From positions 4,960,001 through 5,024,000 of the forward strand of contig OY740804.1 in NCBI GenBank assembly GCA_963514005.1: a stretch of DNA of 64,000 bases. The letters are read 5' to 3'. The stretch is from Raja brachyura (taxonomy: Eukaryota). The first letter of the stretch is position 1. Each line of letters starts with the position of its first letter. Position numbers: made by a program. This document shows, one piece after another, positions 42,001 through 57,000 of the stretch.

Positions 42001-45000
42001 TCACTGACTGTATCACTTCGCGCTTGTTACATTCCACATCCCGCTTTCCCAGCTGATCTCCATCCTGTGGTAATTCTAGACAAACTTCGTCACAGTCCAC
42101 TGGAACAATAATTTTTCATTTTCAAAACGTGAATATCTTGACAGTAGTGTTTCAAATTTGAAGTGAAGAGTTGAAGCAGAGAGGAGAGGGTCAAACTCCA
42201 ATTAACCTCAACTGATTTCAGGTAAAAAGCCCCTTCTTCCAAACGCCAGCTTCCTGTTTTGCCCCTTGTCAACAACAATATGCCAAAACAAAAGTTCTAA
42301 TGATTATATTTTTGATCTGGCGGTCCACTTACAAAATCATCATGAGGGAATGATCCGGAATTGTACACACCTTAGACATGTCTACTCTTCTAAATGTCAT
42401 ATTTTATCCAATGTATCATTGTTTACATGAAGGGTCCCGACCCGAAACGTCACCTATCCATTTTCTCCACAGGTGCTGCCTGGCCCGCAGAGTTGCTCCT
42501 GCATTTGTTTTGTCTATCATTATTTCCACCACTGTTCAGTGTTAACAGACTCTGAGTACAGAGATAACCGCCGCTCCACCCTGACGGATACATCACACTT
42601 GACGAAGTGATTGAAGCAACTGCAATAACAACATGTAATGGGCACTTGGACAGGTCCATGTATAGGGAAGGTTTAGGGAGATATGGGTTGAATTTGGGGA
42701 AATTTGTCTAACATATGAGCATATTGGTCTATCGAGTTGTGGAGAAGGGCCTGTTTCCGTGCTGTATGACTCTGTGATCATCTGACCCAAACCATTTGTT
42801 AAATATAACCCTGAGCCTTTCACAATCCATCGTGTCGAGCTGCTGTTGGCTCGCTGTGGTTCAGGATCTGACGTCCTGTTCCCTTCTTCCTCATTGCTAT
42901 TTGAGAGATGCGGTTGTATCTGAGAGCTCAGAGCTGAGCGACAAGTAGACAAGTGCTGGCATTGTCACTATGGATAAAACAACGTGGATTCCCATTCTTC
43001 TCATCTCCTCGCTGCCCGGTGAGTGAAAGCCAGATGTTGATATTCCAATGATCAATGTTAGTTGGGGTCCCGTGCACCCTTTCCACAGCAGAGATGTGTA
43101 GACATGTAATGGGGGAAATGAAACCAGTGCATTGCGGTGATGGATCTGAAATCACATTTGAATATCTAGACCATGTTCGCAGTTTAATCACTGTTTACAC
43201 GTGGTCTAACTGCATGCTGATGATAGTTTAAATTGACAATAGAACCTGTCCCGTTGAGAAGCGGGACATTTGGCTCCAAATTCAGTTTAGTTTATTGTCA
43301 CGTGGACCGAGGAACAGTGTTTTTGTGGCGTGCAGAAAGACAATACATGACCACAATCGATCCTCATACAGTGCATAGATACATGAAAAGGAAAGTTAAA
43401 GCCAGCAAATTCTGATCAAGGGTAGACCGAGGCTCATCAAAGAGGCAGATAGGCGTTCAGCACTGATCTCTGGTTGTTGTAGGATGTTTCCGATCCCTGA
43501 TAACAGCTGCGAAGAAACTGTCCCCAAATCTGGCGGTGTGCGTTTTCACGCTCGTAACGCTCTCCGGTAACGGACCCGCTTTATTGTAACCCGTCCGTCC
43601 TCTGTCCTCAGTTGTAAATGCGGTGAATGTCTAAACACGGGTCCGGCCCAGTGTCGGTTGAGAGATGAATGTTGGCAGCGCAACCGGCGGCACCGTCAAT
43701 AAAATAGCAAAGTGGGGTCTTTCTGTGGGGTGAGAGGCCGGGCACCGCCTGGGATTGTTGAAAGGCAGCTCCTGCAACACTGCCGCGCTCCCTCAGTACC
43801 GCACTGCGATCCCAGCCCAGTTTCTGCTCAGGAATCTGGAGTGGGAAGTGAGCCCTAATTGTACTGACCCGGGGACAGAACACTGACACAACTGGTACAA
43901 TAACAGCACTGCCTGCACTTCAGACCGGAGACATTGTCCGTGATGCAATATGACACATCATGGAACGATTTAAGTTTTCTTTCATGTAATCTTCAAAATA
44001 TATATATTTCCATTAAACAGTTCATTTGCTCTCCATCTGAAAGTTTCTCCCCTCAGTTTCAGGTGCAGTGTGGGGAGAGAGGGAGGTAAGAGGAGTTGTG
44101 GGAAGAGCGATCACAATCGATTGTCACTATGCAGCAGAGTACCGCTCACACACAAAATACTGGTGTGATTGCAGGTGGAATCCGTGTGGAGTTTTAGTGG
44201 CAACAAATGGGCAACACGGACGGAGTGGAAGAGTGTCAATCACAGATAACCCGGCACGAGGAATATTTACTGTGACTGTGGAGGATCTTCACTCTGGACA
44301 CACGGGATGGTACAGATGTGGAATTACAACATCTGCCGGCCATCCAATATTTAACGTACATCTCCAAGTATCTGACGGTACGTTTCGAAACGATTGACTT
44401 GACGTCTCCACTGAAATGCCTGATCCGTGTTTCTCCGGGAAGGGTCAGGGCAGCACCGATATCCCGAGGCTCCGCAGCAGTGCAGAGACCTGCGGGGAGC
44501 GGGCGGGGGTCGGGAAACCCCACTCATGTTGCTCTCACCCAGTGCGGGCTCTGTCCCACTGAGCGGCCACCCACTTCAACTGGGACGCTCAGCACATTAC
44601 CCTCCCTCTGAAATATCACCCTGTCAGAGGTTTGCATTCCGACCCAAACTAATAATCCGACAGATCAGTGAGAAACAAGTCTTGCTCGCGGTCTGAATAG
44701 CCGGGGAATCATAAACATGGAATCAGTCCCCAGAGCTCAACAGACTGCGTTCAGTCCTCCCGGGGCAGGCCAGCCCGCTCCCCGCCCCCACCTCAGGGAT
44801 CAGTCACTCCGCCCCCACCACGCGCTCTGTCTCTGTCCCTCTGCCCCGTCAATGTGCCCCAATCCCCAGCAGCCACTGTCCACCCACCGCCCGGCAGTCA
44901 GCCTGCCTCTCCACCCCGACATTTCCCCGGTGGTAAGCAGAATGAACTCATTTTACGCCCCATCAGCCGTCGCACACAGCATATAATCCTCCAACATTTT

Positions 45001-54000: not shown

Positions 54001-57000
54001 GCTCCAGCTTATCATGACAACATCTCCCATTTGCTGTAAATTACACTGAAGAAACATTGCCTATAACTCCTTACATCGGACAAGCATGCTCTCTTGTTCA
54101 ACTGCAAGTGAAAAGCAATGAAATGATTTTTATTTCCTTGTTCCAACAGGACTTGAATATTCTTGTGAAACTTCGAAAAGATCCAAGTATACGTCAAGGT
54201 AAACTGTTCAAGAAGAAACTGCAGATGCTGGAAAATCGAAGGTAGACAAAAATGCTGGAGAAACTCCGCGGGTACGGCAGCATCTATGGAGCGAAGGAAA
54301 TAGGCAATGTATCGGGTGGAAACCCCTCTTCAGACTGATGGTGGGTCTGAAGAAGGGTTTCGGCCCAAAACGTTACCTATTTCCTTCACTCCATAGATGC
54401 TGCTGCACCCGCTGAGTTTCTGCAGCACTTTTGTCTACCTTCAAGGTTAACTACTCTGTTTCCAATGAAAGATGCCATGTACTAATTGCTGGTGTTTTGA
54501 TTGGGATTGCTTCAATTGAAAGAAAGTTGTATCTTCCGTTCACTGGCATTAAAGGCCAGTTGGAGTATTGAGTTGTATGCACAGTGGCACAGCCAGTGGG
54601 ACCACAGCCTCACAATGCCAAGACCCTGAACTTAGGTGCCGTTTATGTGTGTTCTGCATATTTTGCCTTTCATTGTGTAGGAATGAACAGCAGATGCTGG
54701 TTTAAACTGAATATAGACACAAACAACTGGAGTAACTCGTCGGGTCAGTCAGTGTCTCTGGAGAAATGGAATAGGTTGAGACCCTCCTTCAGAGTGAGAG
54801 TCAGGGGAAAGGGAAACAAGAGCGATATCAACGGTGGTATAGAAAGTTATAAAACAATGAATGAAAGATATGCAAAAAAGTAACAATGACCAAGGAAAAT
54901 ATCCATTGTTAGCTGTGGGCTAGGTGAAAACGGGTTGCACAGACAATATGACACTACAAGACAACAGTGAAATTCATACAACGACTAGGGTGGCGGAGAG
55001 ATGGAGAGAGAGGGGATGCAAGGGTCATTTAAAGTTAGAGAAATCGACATTTATACCATTGTGCAGTAAGTTGCCCAAGAGAAGTATGAGGTGCTGGTCC
55101 TCCAATTTGCATTTGTCCTCACTCTGACAATGTAGGAAGCCCAGGACGGAACGGTCAGTGTGGGAATGGGAGGGAGAGTTAAAGTGTTTAGCAACTGGGA
55201 GATCATATAGTGCCAGGAGGACTAAGCGTATGTGTTCAGTGAAATGGTCGCCCAGTCAACGTTTGGTCCTGCTGATGTATGAGAGTCCACACCTGATACA
55301 GTAGATGAGGTTAGAGGATGTTCAAATGAACTCTATCCCGAAAGGACAGTTGAGATCCTTTGACAGAGTCAAGGGAGGAGGTATAGGGACAGATGTTGCA
55401 TTTCCTATGGTTGAAGGGGAAGGTATTGGGGAGGGGGTGGTTTGGATGGGAGCGAATGAGATAACCAGGGAAGTATAGGTCATAATGTTATAAGGAATAG
55501 GAGTAGAATTGACCCATTCAGCAGGGTTGCAGAGGGAATGGTCTCCTGCTCTCCATCCGACACTCAACTGCACTGGGACAATCTCCAACATCCCCCTCCC
55601 CTTTCTCGATCTCATCGTCTTCACCAAAGGAGATAGACTATCGACTCATGTTTATTATAAACCTACTGACTCCCACAACTATCTAGACCACTCTTCTTCC
55701 CACAGGATTTGTGTGAATGTGGCTGATGGTCAGTGCAGACCTGAAGGACCAAATGGCCTGTTTCCATACTGTGTTTCTCTATGGATCCGATGAACCCAAA
55801 TATCAAGAAACATAACCAATGCCTTTGTACATATTTCAAGCCTGACATTAAAAGATAAATTTATCTCTCAAACATTCTTCTAAACAAGAGTTTAGAAGAA
55901 TGATGGGGGACCTCATTGAAACATACAGAATAATGAAAGGCTTGGATAGAGTGGATGTGGAGAGGATGTTTCCACCAGTTGGAGATTCTAGGACTAGAAG
56001 TTATAGCCTCAGAATGAGATGTTCTTTTATGAAGGAGATGAGGATAAATTCCTTTAGTCTGTGGGTGGTGAATCTATGGAATTCTTTGCCACAGAATTCT
56101 GTGGCGGCCAAGTCAGTGGATATTTTTAAGGCATAAGTAGCTAGATTCTTCATTAGTTCGGGTGTTAGAGGTTATGGGGAGAAGGCAGGACAATGGGGTT
56201 AGGCGGGAGAGATAGATCAGTCATGATTGAATGGCGGAGTAGACTTGATGGGCTAAATTCCCTAATTCTACTCCTATTGCTTATGACCTTATTCTATAAT
56301 AATATGTATATAACTTGCAAACCAGATATTAGTTAACTCACCAGAAGGGAAATTGCACTGGATTATATCTCATTGTGCTGTGTATATGCTTGGGTGATAA
56401 GAACAGATGACTCCATTTGTTGCCCTTCAGAGGGCATTCCCTGAGGTATTCACCAATGATATTCTCCCTTGCTAACCTCATCCCATGGTGTGAGATGAGT
56501 AAAGCTGCCAAACACAAGTATTGCTGCTTTGCCTTGCTGTGACCTGTTCTGGTGTGGTGCTGAGAGGAAAATGCACAGTGAATGTTGGTCTAAAACACCA
56601 CCTTTGATATCACGTATGGCAACACCTTGCAGAGTTGGTCAGTGTCTCAATGTCAGTCACTCCAACAGCAGGAGGTTTCTCCACCTAGAACATGACCCTA
56701 GACGCCATGGTGTTCTCCCTGCCGAGGTTGGAACAGGGTTGTAGAACCGTGTTCACAAAGTGGTGGCTTCAAGGATAGCTGCAAATATTTGGGTAAATCC
56801 CTCAGATACCACACCACTGCTGTACTGACGGGGGGCTTCATGCTGGCTGTCAGATATGAAAACTCCAACAACAGTGACATGATGGCACAGCGGTAGAGTT
56901 GCTCCCTTACTACTTGTGTTCGATCCTGACTACGGTTGCTGTCTTTAGAGTCTATTCGTTCTCTAGGTGACCACGTGAGTTTTCTCCAGGTGTCCCAGTT

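What the first reader, a model, noticed from the sequence alone, without database searches (positions are those of the whole stretch)
43630..54008. Ectodomain-limited gene conversion tract between the activating and inhibitory genes
Seen: introns from just before V1 to after C2 (about 21700-30970 vs 43630-54008) are near-identical. I count about 6 mismatches in the 315 bp after V1. Identity drops sharply outside the tract: the stalk exons differ at 10 of 49 nt, and the promoter region and intron 1 are visibly more diverged with indels. Known: Siglec-5/14, Siglec-11/16 and PILR pairs are homogenised this way. Inference: recent conversion or unequal crossover keeps ligand specificity matched while the tails stay distinct.
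Basis: partly seen in the sequence, partly recalled or inferred. Interest (0 to 1): 0.7.

Follow-up and report, generated by a model that had tools for sequence, protein, structure and literature searches.

The report
Converted ectodomain block, paired immune receptors
Two neighbouring immune-receptor genes share a 9-10 kb nearly identical block covering all four antibody-like domains, most likely copied from one gene into the other, yet the outermost binding loop inside it differs sharply; this is a known kind of paired-receptor evolution seen in a new gene pair.

Summary
Two tandem + strand genes each encode leader, V, C2, V, C2, stalk and tail. Their V domains are of the CD300/pIgR type.

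- **The block:** A 21687-30963 and B 43620-54003 differ at 222 of 7,647 aligned non-coding sites (2.9%).
- **The flanks:** divergence is 17.8% in the 5' part of intron 1, 9.9% in the promoter, 19.9% downstream, and 11-14% in the older duplicated sequence.
- **5' break:** it falls at 21687/43620, and 0 of 1,000 permutations reached the observed statistic.
6 of 315 and 10 of 49 are both exact.

Old homologous sequence flanks the block on both sides. Intron divergence is even across the block. This fits one long non-reciprocal exchange, that is, gene conversion.

V1 and C2a are about 10% diverged (Fisher p about 1e-8). One 31-nt patch, the CC' loop that lines the ligand cleft in CD300lf, differs at 20 of 31 sites. 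Only V2 and C2b are matched.

Gene B carries ITIM-like motifs. Gene A has a short tail without an ITIM, and an activating role is not shown.

This is a known phenomenon (merohomogenization, seen in Siglec-11/16 and CD300A/C) in a new gene pair.

The parts
21687..30963 (+). Homogenised block in gene A (9,277 bp), running from the 3' part of intron 1 to 1.18 kb into intron 5
   Evidence: Non-coding mismatch against B is 222 of 7,647. The five introns are homogeneous (chi-square p = 0.26).
43620..54003 (+). Homogenised block in gene B (10,384 bp). It is longer than A's because of B-only segments at 45956-46538, 49905-50452 and 52017-52275.
20707..20755 (+). Gene A leader exon, outside the block
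   Evidence: It has an ATG, a hydrophobic core and a GTGAGT donor in phase 1. It differs from B at 4 of 49 sites.
22106..22426 (+). Gene A V1 exon (D1, V-set)
   Evidence: Pfam V-set, E 8e-13. PDB sequence search finds pIgR D1 and CD300.
22215..22245 (+). Divergence island 1, the V1 CC' loop patch (B equivalent 44166-44196)
   Evidence: 20 of 31 nt differ. The neighbouring 109 nt and 85 nt of the exon differ at 1 and 0 sites. The patch lies between the family Cys pair.
22331..22408 (+). Divergence island 2, covering the V1 E-F loop and the F and G strands
   Evidence: 10 of 78 nt differ. By my reading, 9 of these 10 are non-synonymous.
25848..26168 (+). Gene A C2a exon (D2, Ig-like)
   Evidence: Pfam Ig_2 scores 29 bits against a cut-off of 27. 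Ig_3 is below its cut-off.
25954..26122 (+). Divergence island 3, inside C2a (B equivalent 48492-48660)
   Evidence: 31 of 169 nt differ (18.3%). The first 106 nt of the exon differ at 0 sites.
27637..27954 (+). Gene A V2 exon (D3, V-set)
   Evidence: It differs from B at 17 of 318 sites. The excess over introns disappears once CpG sites are removed.
29463..29783 (+). Gene A C2b exon (D4, Ig-like)
   Evidence: It differs from B at 9 of 321 sites, the same level as the introns.
31493..31541 (+). Gene A stalk exon (49 nt, phase 1 to 2), outside the block
   Evidence: It differs from B at 10 of 49 sites and from the orphan copy c0 at 3 of 49.
31987..32101 (+). Gene A candidate terminal exon (inferred). 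It gives a short tail with no ITIM and a 15-residue hydrophobic stretch.
   Evidence: It is in phase with the stalk exon. The ORF and its stop are shared with c0 (starting at 9035). B holds a frameshifted relic at 56345.
42970..43018 (+). Gene B leader exon
44057..44377 (+). Gene B V1 exon. Its CC' loop carries an extra Cys.
48386..48706 (+). Gene B C2a exon
50730..51047 (+). Gene B V2 exon
52802..53122 (+). Gene B C2b exon
54150..54198 (+). Gene B stalk exon (49 nt)
57486..57574 (+). Gene B transmembrane exon. It has an uncharged 19-residue core and runs from phase 2 to phase 1.
   Evidence: The row ended 5 nt too early; the donor GT is at 57575. tblastn finds no counterpart elsewhere in the window.
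59955..60215 (+). Gene B last exon, carrying two ITIM-like motifs (VVYADV, SIYASV)
   Evidence: A 47-nt exon at 59505-59551 would link the frames, but it is tentative.
30964..31351 (+). A-only 192 bp and 182 bp, separated by 14 shared bases, at the 3' edge of the block. This is a structural heterology between A and B.
   Evidence: The first piece is an interspersed repeat with other copies in the window. It is also present at the same place in c0 (8250-8313).
8250..15146 (+). Orphan third copy (c0) of the post-ectodomain region. It has stalk and terminal-exon homologues but no Ig exons upstream within the window.

Best explanation
**What the genes are.** Two tandem paralogous receptor genes, about 22.3 kb apart in direct orientation, arose by an old duplication. 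The old level of divergence is about 10-20%. Each gene encodes leader, V, C2, V, C2, stalk and tail.

**What happened.** Much later, one long non-reciprocal exchange overwrote one gene's sequence with the other's. The overwritten stretch runs from mid-intron 1 to 1.2 kb past the fourth Ig exon, introns and embedded LINE fragments included. This was interlocus gene conversion or an equivalent double exchange.
- The exchange stopped at the 3' side where the two genes differ structurally (A-only inserts).
- It stopped at the 5' side in an indel-rich part of intron 1.
- The tails were untouched. B keeps an uncharged TM and an ITIM-bearing tail. A keeps a short tail with no ITIM.

**What differs inside the block.** The membrane-distal pair of domains is not matched.
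- The V1 CC' loop, the V1 F-G region and two-thirds of C2a stand out as sharp islands of 13-65% divergence.
- These islands either survived the exchange (patchy repair, or selection against converted binding sites) or were rewritten afterwards from family members outside the window.

**Shown and inferred.** Shown: the anatomy, the identity profile, the breakpoints, the islands and the ITIM-like motifs. Inferred: conversion as the mechanism, the single-event reading, the cause of the islands, and A's signalling type.
For: **Block against flanks.** Non-coding divergence in the block is 2.9% (222 of 7,647). The flanks are far higher:
- intron 1, 5' part: 17.8%
- promoter: 9.9%
- 3' flank: 19.9%
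- older duplicate blocks: 11-14%

**Sharp 5' break.** 0 of 1,000 permutations reached the observed maximum chi-square.

**Old homology on both sides.** Homologous but old sequence continues on both sides of the block. The young segment is therefore internal to an older duplication.

**Not selective constraint.** The block contains shared LINE fragments: an RVT_1 ORF at 45662-46633 on the minus strand, and an ORF at 26550-27209. Constraint cannot explain identity across such sequence.

**One coalescence time.**
- The five introns are homogeneous (chi-square p = 0.26).
- The dispersion index is 0.94-1.17 at 200-400 bp.

**3' edge.** It coincides with sequence present only in A.

**Islands.**
- V1 differs at 31 of 321 sites and C2a at 32 of 321, against 2.98% in tract non-coding sequence (Fisher p 4e-8 and 1e-8).
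- At non-CpG sites the figures are 8.0% and 8.2% against 2.26% (p 6e-7 and 2e-7).

**Fold and ligand site.**
- The V1 model (pLDDT 73) is closest to CD300a and CD300lf, with TM-scores of 0.73-0.75.

**Precedents.**
- Siglec-11/16 (abstract)
- CD300A/C (passages)
- merohomogenization (abstract)
- CEACAM32, where introns are converted but Ig exons are not (abstract)
- the peak-of-divergence theory (passages)
Against: - No second species and no other family member could be compared. The classic test, paralogues clustering within a species only inside the tract, was not done. Neither the direction nor the donor is known.
- A tract of 9.3 kb is long for a single conversion event.
- Both synonymous and non-synonymous sites are raised in V1 and C2a. 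Synonymous differences are 9 of 76 in each (p 4e-4) and dN/dS is about 0.75. Simple positive selection on point mutations therefore does not explain the islands.
- There is slight clustering of non-coding mismatches at 100 bp (p = 0.02). A 329-bp identical run (p = 0.013) hints at more than one event.
- No donor for the island sequences exists within the window.
- No reads were available to exclude misassembly.
Confidence: 0.72

Rival explanations
1. The pair undergoes ongoing concerted evolution by many short conversion events at equilibrium. Selection continually removes conversions that would erase differences in V1 and C2a. This is the 'peak of divergence' model, not one long event.
For: - The islands are narrow and reach the level of the old flanks. 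The C2a island is 18.3% and the V1 F-G part is 12.8%, against 10-20% in the flanks.
- The theory and the opsin example are in passages of PMC3924837.
- CEACAM32 shows conversions in introns but not in Ig exons (abstract).
- There is a 329-bp identical run (p = 0.013) and slight clustering at 100 bp.
Against: - Non-coding divergence is even along 9.3 kb (introns p = 0.26; dispersion about 1 at 200-400 bp). Many independent short events should leave a patchwork of ages.
- The CC' patch, at 65% mismatch, is far above the old background, so it is not merely retained old divergence.
Confidence: 0.2
2. No conversion took place. One gene is a recent chimera, made when a young duplicate of the Ig-exon segment was joined to older promoter and tail sequence by unequal crossover or duplicative insertion.
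For: - The 3' edge of the block coincides with the edge of the older roughly 22.6-kb repeat unit. The c0 homology begins exactly there.
- It also sits beside interspersed-repeat copies that could mediate non-allelic recombination.
Against: - A single unequal crossover predicts that the sequence after A's block and the sequence after B's block are as alike as the blocks themselves. They differ at 156 of 804 three-way columns.
- Old paralogous sequence lies on both sides of the young block in both genes. Two exchanges at homologous points are therefore needed, which is conversion in all but name.
Confidence: 0.1
3. The block is an assembly artefact: a repeat or allelic sequence wrongly laid down twice.
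For: None from the sequence. The only grounds are that reads could not be examined.
Against: - The copies differ at about 3.5% of aligned sites (311 of 8,928, my sum).
- They carry four private indels of 259-583 bp.
- They carry different intact exons and are joined to different tails with frame-consistent splice sites.
Confidence: 0.03

Closest known systems
[quoted passage not shown]
   Same: It is an inhibitory and non-inhibitory pair. Conversion is confined to the region encoding the extracellular, ligand-binding part. The tails stay distinct.
   Different: There the converted exons keep similar glycan preference. Here the outermost V domain differs in its CC' loop and the first C2 domain is 17% different in protein. 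The Ig family differs (CD300/pIgR-like, not Siglec), and the architecture is four domains, V-C2-V-C2. Cross-species evidence is absent here.
CD300A / CD300C paired receptors in primates (PMC12447643, passages seen)
   Same: The V-domain family is the same by fold and sequence. Conversion is reported to homogenise the extracellular domain while the tails diverge.
   Different: Those receptors have a single V domain. The homogenisation is described as preserving the ligand-binding site, whereas here the homologous loop is the most diverged spot.
'Merohomogenization' of paired opposing leukocyte receptors: KLRC, KLRI, KLRB, KLRA and PIR (PMC3210942, abstract seen)
   Same: Homogenisation is restricted mainly to the part of the genes that encodes the ligand-binding domains.
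   Different: Most of those families are lectin-like. That work used cross-species phylogenies, which I could not run.
Bovine CEACAM32 escaping concerted evolution (PMC7042247, abstract seen), and the red/green opsin 'peak of divergence' (PMC3924837, passages seen)
   Same: Introns are homogenised by conversion while particular exons stay diverged. This is read as selection against conversion of functional sites.
   Different: Here only two of the four Ig exons stand out. One island (65% mismatch over 31 nt) exceeds any background level.
Modular domain immune-type receptors (MDIR) of the clearnose skate (known to me only through passages of PMC3031540)
   Same: They are described as a multigene family of activating and inhibitory receptors whose Ig domains resemble CD300, TREM, FCAR and pIgR.
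   Different: No MDIR sequence was on hand, so no comparison was made. The organism of this window is unknown.

Membership tests
Paired inhibitory / activating receptor pair with ectodomain-limited homogenisation | Two linked paralogues whose ectodomain-coding segment is far more alike than their flanks | tested here: met
   The tract is 2.9% diverged against 10-20% in the flanks. The break is sharp, with 0 of 1,000 permutations reaching the statistic.
Paired inhibitory / activating receptor pair with ectodomain-limited homogenisation | One partner has an uncharged TM segment and cytoplasmic ITIM(s) | tested here: met
   Gene B has its TM exon at 57486-57574 and the motifs VVYADV and SIYASV in its last exon. 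This is motif-level evidence only.
Paired inhibitory / activating receptor pair with ectodomain-limited homogenisation | The other partner has a short tail and a charged residue in its TM segment that recruits an ITAM adaptor | tested here: inconclusive
   A's in-frame candidate terminal exon gives a short tail without an ITIM. The hydrophobic stretch is 15 residues, with a His inside it and Asp-Asp-Lys after it. No classical TM was found by scanning. No transcript data were available.
Paired inhibitory / activating receptor pair with ectodomain-limited homogenisation | Paralogues cluster within a species inside the tract and by type outside it | not testable with these tools
Paired inhibitory / activating receptor pair with ectodomain-limited homogenisation | The partners share ligand specificity | not testable with these tools
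   There is sequence evidence only. D3 and D4 are 91% and 95% identical in protein, while D1 and D2 are 85% and 83-84% identical, with the CC' loop replaced.
CD300 / pIgR-type V-set domain | V-set fold with the extra C-C' disulfide (YWC...C) in addition to the canonical pair | tested here: met
   - Pfam V-set matches 4 of 4 V exons.
- The alignment to pIgR D1 keeps the Cys pair.
- The Cys pair is invariant in all 4 V exons.
- Foldseek's best matches are CD300a and CD300lf, with TM-scores of 0.73-0.75, from a model of moderate confidence.
Polymeric Ig receptor proper | A run of tandem pIgR-type V-like domains without interposed C2 domains | tested here: not met
   The architecture here is V-C2-V-C2. 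The domain layout of pIgR itself is recalled; it is consistent with the five V-type matches per chain.
MDIR (skate) | Sequence relationship to the published MDIR genes | not tested

The most novel reading that the evidence does not exclude
The block is a matched scaffold carrying deliberately unmatched tips. After or during homogenisation, the ligand cleft of the outermost V domain (the CC' loop and the F-G region) and part of the adjacent C2 domain were kept or made different. This happened by selection or by short templated patches drawn from a wider family of cassette-like donors. As a result the ITIM gene and its short-tailed neighbour see related but distinct ligands. This would be a decoy or counter-receptor pair caught in the act of diverging, in a lineage where such receptor pairs are little studied.
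Probability: 0.25. Interest if true: 0.6.

Novelty: new member of a known kind. Interest (0 to 1): 0.42.

Why it matters
Homogenisation of ectodomains between inhibitory and non-inhibitory receptor neighbours is a recurring theme in mammalian innate immunity. This locus shows the same process in a four-domain CD300/pIgR-like pair of a non-mammalian vertebrate.

It also shows clearly that homogenised introns need not mean matched binding sites. The loop that lines the ligand and virus cleft in the closest solved relative is the most diverged 31 bases in 9 kb.

If the islands are selected or templated, the pair is a compact system for studying how paired receptors drift apart under pathogen pressure.

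Tried and rejected
**Corrected error**
- I first read the A stalk exon as 41 nt, out of frame with any tail. This came from hidden columns in my own printout. One search shows 49 nt in all three copies, and I withdrew the frame-shift idea.

**Search for a charged TM exon in A's tail (31.5-42.6 kb)**
- Hydropathy and charged-TM scans gave only weak or repeat-derived candidates.
- The hydrophobic ORFs at about 10.3, 16.3 and 36.9 kb are copies of an interspersed repeat.
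- The ORFs at 35716 and 35858 lie in a local tandem duplication.

**Models and donors**
- The single unequal-crossover model is rejected.
- V2 or C2b as donors of the V1 or C2a differences: no continuous tract supports this.
- BLAST of the island sequences finds only hits of 19 nt or less (E at least 0.03) elsewhere in the window, apart from homology to the paralogous C2 exons.

**Searches that gave little**
- ARAGORN found 0 tRNA genes.
- Rfam found 0 matches at gathering thresholds and only 2 weak chance-level matches in the A-only insert. My impression that the insert is a tRNA-derived SINE is therefore unsupported.
- The ESM Atlas gave only generic chordate V-set clusters.
- The first literature search was mostly noise.

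**Not done**
- The genome-contig collection holds bacteria and archaea only, so it was not scanned.
- No complex prediction was run, because no binding claim is made.
- The spliced (joined) protein models of A and B were not assembled, searched or folded. Every search and the fold used single exons.

Full report
**What the window is**

The window is 64,000 bases with one N run at 484-612, which I left untouched. I do not take it for human, for these reasons:
- Rfam finds no 7SL/Alu-type or any other family at gathering thresholds.
- The intergenic DNA is full of LINE reverse-transcriptase fragments. Their peptide motifs remind me of fish and shark elements, but that is recall, not a test.

The organism stays unknown. 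No vertebrate sequence collection was open, so nothing outside the window could be compared. That is the main limit of this report.

**Anatomy**

Motif, ORF and tblastn scans find exactly eight Ig exons, all on the + strand, four per gene. With leader exons and canonical, frame-consistent splice sites, the models are as follows.

| Exon | Gene A | Gene B |
|---|---|---|
| Leader | 20707-20755 | 42970-43018 |
| V1 | 22106-22426 | 44057-44377 |
| C2a | 25848-26168 | 48386-48706 |
| V2 | 27637-27954 | 50730-51047 |
| C2b | 29463-29783 | 52802-53122 |
| Stalk | 31493-31541 | 54150-54198 |
| Tail | candidate terminal exon 31987-32101 | TM 57486-57574; tentative 47-nt exon 59505-59551; last exon 59955-60215 |

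The donor of B's TM exon is read. The row was 5 nt short.

Domain evidence:
- All four V exons hit Pfam V-set (4 of 4).
- In the PDB sequence search, V1 of A is closest to pIgR domain 1 and to CD300 family ectodomains (46 sequences at E ≤ 0.001).
- The C2 exons hit Ig_2/Ig_3 near or below the cut-offs.
V1 and V2 are 76% identical in protein, an old internal duplication.

I searched and folded exon by exon only. The joined spliced proteins were not built or searched.

**The tails**

Gene B has a clean 19-residue hydrophobic core followed by basic residues. Its last exon carries VVYADV and SIYASV. It is an inhibitory-type tail by motif.

Neither B's TM exon nor its last exon has a counterpart elsewhere in the window.

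In gene A the 49-nt stalk exon ends in phase 2. The first in-phase acceptor downstream opens a 37-codon ORF ending in a stop. This ORF:
- has no ITIM;
- has a 15-residue hydrophobic stretch containing His, followed by Asp-Asp-Lys;
- is shared, stop included, with an orphan third copy (c0, from 9035);
- survives in B's intron only as a frameshifted relic at 56345.

So the tails are truly distinct. 'Activating' for A is an inference I could not confirm.

**The observation**

Self-BLAST, global alignment and sliding windows show a block at 95-100% identity (mismatches only). It runs from A 21624-21687 / B 43574-43620 to A 30963 / B 54003.

- Maximum chi-square puts the 5' break at 21687 / 43620, with 17.6% before and 2.7% after. 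0 of 1,000 permutations reached it.
- Non-coding divergence inside the block is 222 of 7,647.
- Outside, the promoter is 30 of 303, the leader 4 of 49, and the 5' part of intron 1 is 97 of 546, with gaps of 161, 122, 15 and 17 nt.
- The 3' flank is 169 of 851.
- The older duplicated blocks upstream are 11.2-14.2% diverged.

**Why a conversion-like exchange**

The window holds an older tandem repeat of about 22.6 kb, 8314-30967 against 31360-54007, with a third unit beginning at 54004. Within that old duplication only the Ig-exon segment is young. Old paralogous sequence flanks it on both sides in both genes.

- A single unequal crossover would make the sequence following the two blocks equally young. 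Instead A against B is 156 of 804, A against c0 is 137 of 804, and B against c0 is 187 of 804.
- Constraint cannot explain identity across shared LINE fragments in the introns.
- The five introns have statistically equal divergence (p = 0.26). Mismatch counts are near-Poisson at 200-400 bp (dispersion 1.17 and 0.94). This points to one main event.
- A 329-bp identical run (p = 0.013) and slight clustering at 100 bp (p = 0.02) leave room for a little later exchange.
- The 3' edge falls exactly where A carries 192 + 182 bp absent from B. The first piece is an interspersed repeat also present in c0. A heteroduplex would be expected to stop at such a heterology; that is my inference.

Since the event the copies have gained private indels:
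- B-only segments of 583, 548 and 259 bp. The first lies inside an intact LINE RT ORF, so it is a deletion in A.
- An A-only segment of 325 bp.

Inside the block the exons are not uniformly alike.

| Exon | All sites, mismatches | Fisher p against tract non-coding (229 of 7,697) | Non-CpG divergence |
|---|---|---|---|
| V1 | 31 / 321 | 4e-8 | 8.0% (p 6e-7) |
| C2a | 32 / 321 | 1e-8 | 8.2% (p 2e-7) |
| V2 | 17 / 318 | 0.03 | 3.4% (not significant) |
| C2b | 9 / 321 | 1.0 | 2.6% (not significant) |

Tract non-coding divergence at non-CpG sites is 2.26%.

The differences sit in islands with clean edges.
- **V1:** 1 of 109, then 20 of 31 (22215-22245), then 0 of 85, then 10 of 78, then 0 of 18.
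- **C2a:** 0 of 106, then 31 of 169, then 1 of 46.

Protein identity between A and B is 85% for V1 (16 differences in 106), 83-84% for C2a (18 in 106, 83.8%), 91% for V2 and 95% for C2b.

Both synonymous and non-synonymous sites are raised in V1 and C2a:
- non-synonymous: 22 of 242 and 23 of 242;
- synonymous: 9 of 76 each;
- dN/dS is about 0.75.

Using V2 and C2b as outgroups, both A and B carry derived changes.

**Where the V1 island sits**

- The 31-nt patch encodes the residues between the two family-specific cysteines.
- A single-exon AlphaFold model has moderate confidence (mean pLDDT 73, pTM 0.69). It places the patch at the end of strand C, the C-C' loop and the start of C'.
- The model's best structural matches are CD300a and CD300lf, with TM-scores of 0.73-0.75 and 38% identity.
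[quoted passage not shown] The cleft's floor is the Cys36-Cys44 disulfide (passages of PMC6166816).

By homology, the most diverged spot of the whole block is the ligand cleft, and the second V1 island flanks the CDR3-equivalent loop. 'Conversion keeps ligand specificity matched' therefore holds at best for the membrane-proximal V2-C2b pair.

**How the islands arose is open**

- **(a) Retained old divergence.** This would be through patchy repair, or through selection against converted binding sites. The C2a island (18%) and the V1 F-G part (13%) match the old background.
- **(b) Later short templated patches from family members elsewhere.** Clustered multi-base changes, raised synonymous change and a 65% patch fit this. 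Exon-limited homology with distant paralogues would naturally confine such patches to exons, which is my inference. No donor lies in the window.
- **(c) Point-mutation positive selection alone.** This fits worst.

**Comparison with what is known**

Ectodomain-limited homogenisation of paired receptors is established:
- Siglec-11/16 (abstract);
- CD300A/CD300C, the same V-domain family (passages);
- KLRC, KLRI, KLRB, KLRA and PIR, named merohomogenization (abstract).

Introns converted while Ig exons escape has been described for bovine CEACAM32 (abstract). Divergence peaks under conversion are a described signature (passages).

My searches found no paper on conversion in four-domain CD300/pIgR-like pairs of non-mammalian vertebrates. 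MDIRs of skate are mentioned as a CD300/pIgR-like family with activating and inhibitory members (passages). These searches cover only the held library.

I file this as a new member of a known kind, with a moderately interesting twist.

**Verdict**

- The mechanism is most likely a long-tract interlocus conversion (0.72).
- The functional gloss is corrected: matched scaffold, unmatched distal binding site.
- Interest is 0.42.

Noticed in passing
window 26169-26479 and 48707-49017: The frame stays open past the C2a donor in both genes. It encodes an identical 21-residue hydrophobic stretch with a central Asp, followed by about 60 more codons. This may be intron read-through by chance, or an alternative short membrane-anchored isoform.
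   Followed up: no
window 8250-15146: There is an orphan third copy (c0) of the post-ectodomain region. It has an intact 49-nt stalk exon (3 of 49 different from A) and an open terminal-exon homologue. tblastn finds no Ig exon upstream of it in the window.
   Followed up: partly
window 56345-56445: Gene B's intron holds a frameshifted relic of the A-type terminal exon. This suggests the ancestor had the short-tail exon. Either the ITIM tail lies downstream of it, or the ITIM tail was lost from A and c0.
   Followed up: partly
window 54199-54437: A repeat of about 235 bp sits directly after the donor of B's stalk exon. It is similar to 16924-17138 in both orientations, which is MITE-like. It is absent from A and c0.
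   Followed up: no
window 15146-20402: There is a 5.2-kb A-only block just upstream of A's promoter. It carries long LINE ORFs (17711-20312). Its 3' end (19895-20408) is 96% identical to 38899-39418. The copies at 39155-39418 and 52018-52281 are 98.9% identical, younger than the converted block, so this LINE family was active after the exchange.
   Followed up: partly
window 3-276 and 971-1244, around the N run at 484-612: Two 274-bp stretches that are 98.5% identical flank the N run. They could be a long terminal repeat pair or an assembly feature. The N run was not touched.
   Followed up: no
window 770-5280, minus strand: This is an AT-rich region (28-34% G+C). It holds L1-like endonuclease and reverse-transcriptase ORF fragments in two partial copies (1376-2665 against 3947-5238, 64% identical).
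   Followed up: no
window 26550-27209 and 49157-49519: A LINE-associated ORF shared by both blocks matches Pfam ALKBH8_N (E 5e-18). This is an odd name for what looks like a retrotransposon ORF tail.
   Followed up: no
window 35652-35771 and 35801-35919: There is a local tandem duplication (86% identical) inside an A-tail-only 3.5-kb segment. Each copy has a short hydrophobic ORF.
   Followed up: partly
window 44166-44196: B's V1 patch adds a third cysteine between the family Cys pair. This could alter disulfide pairing in the CC' loop.
   Followed up: no
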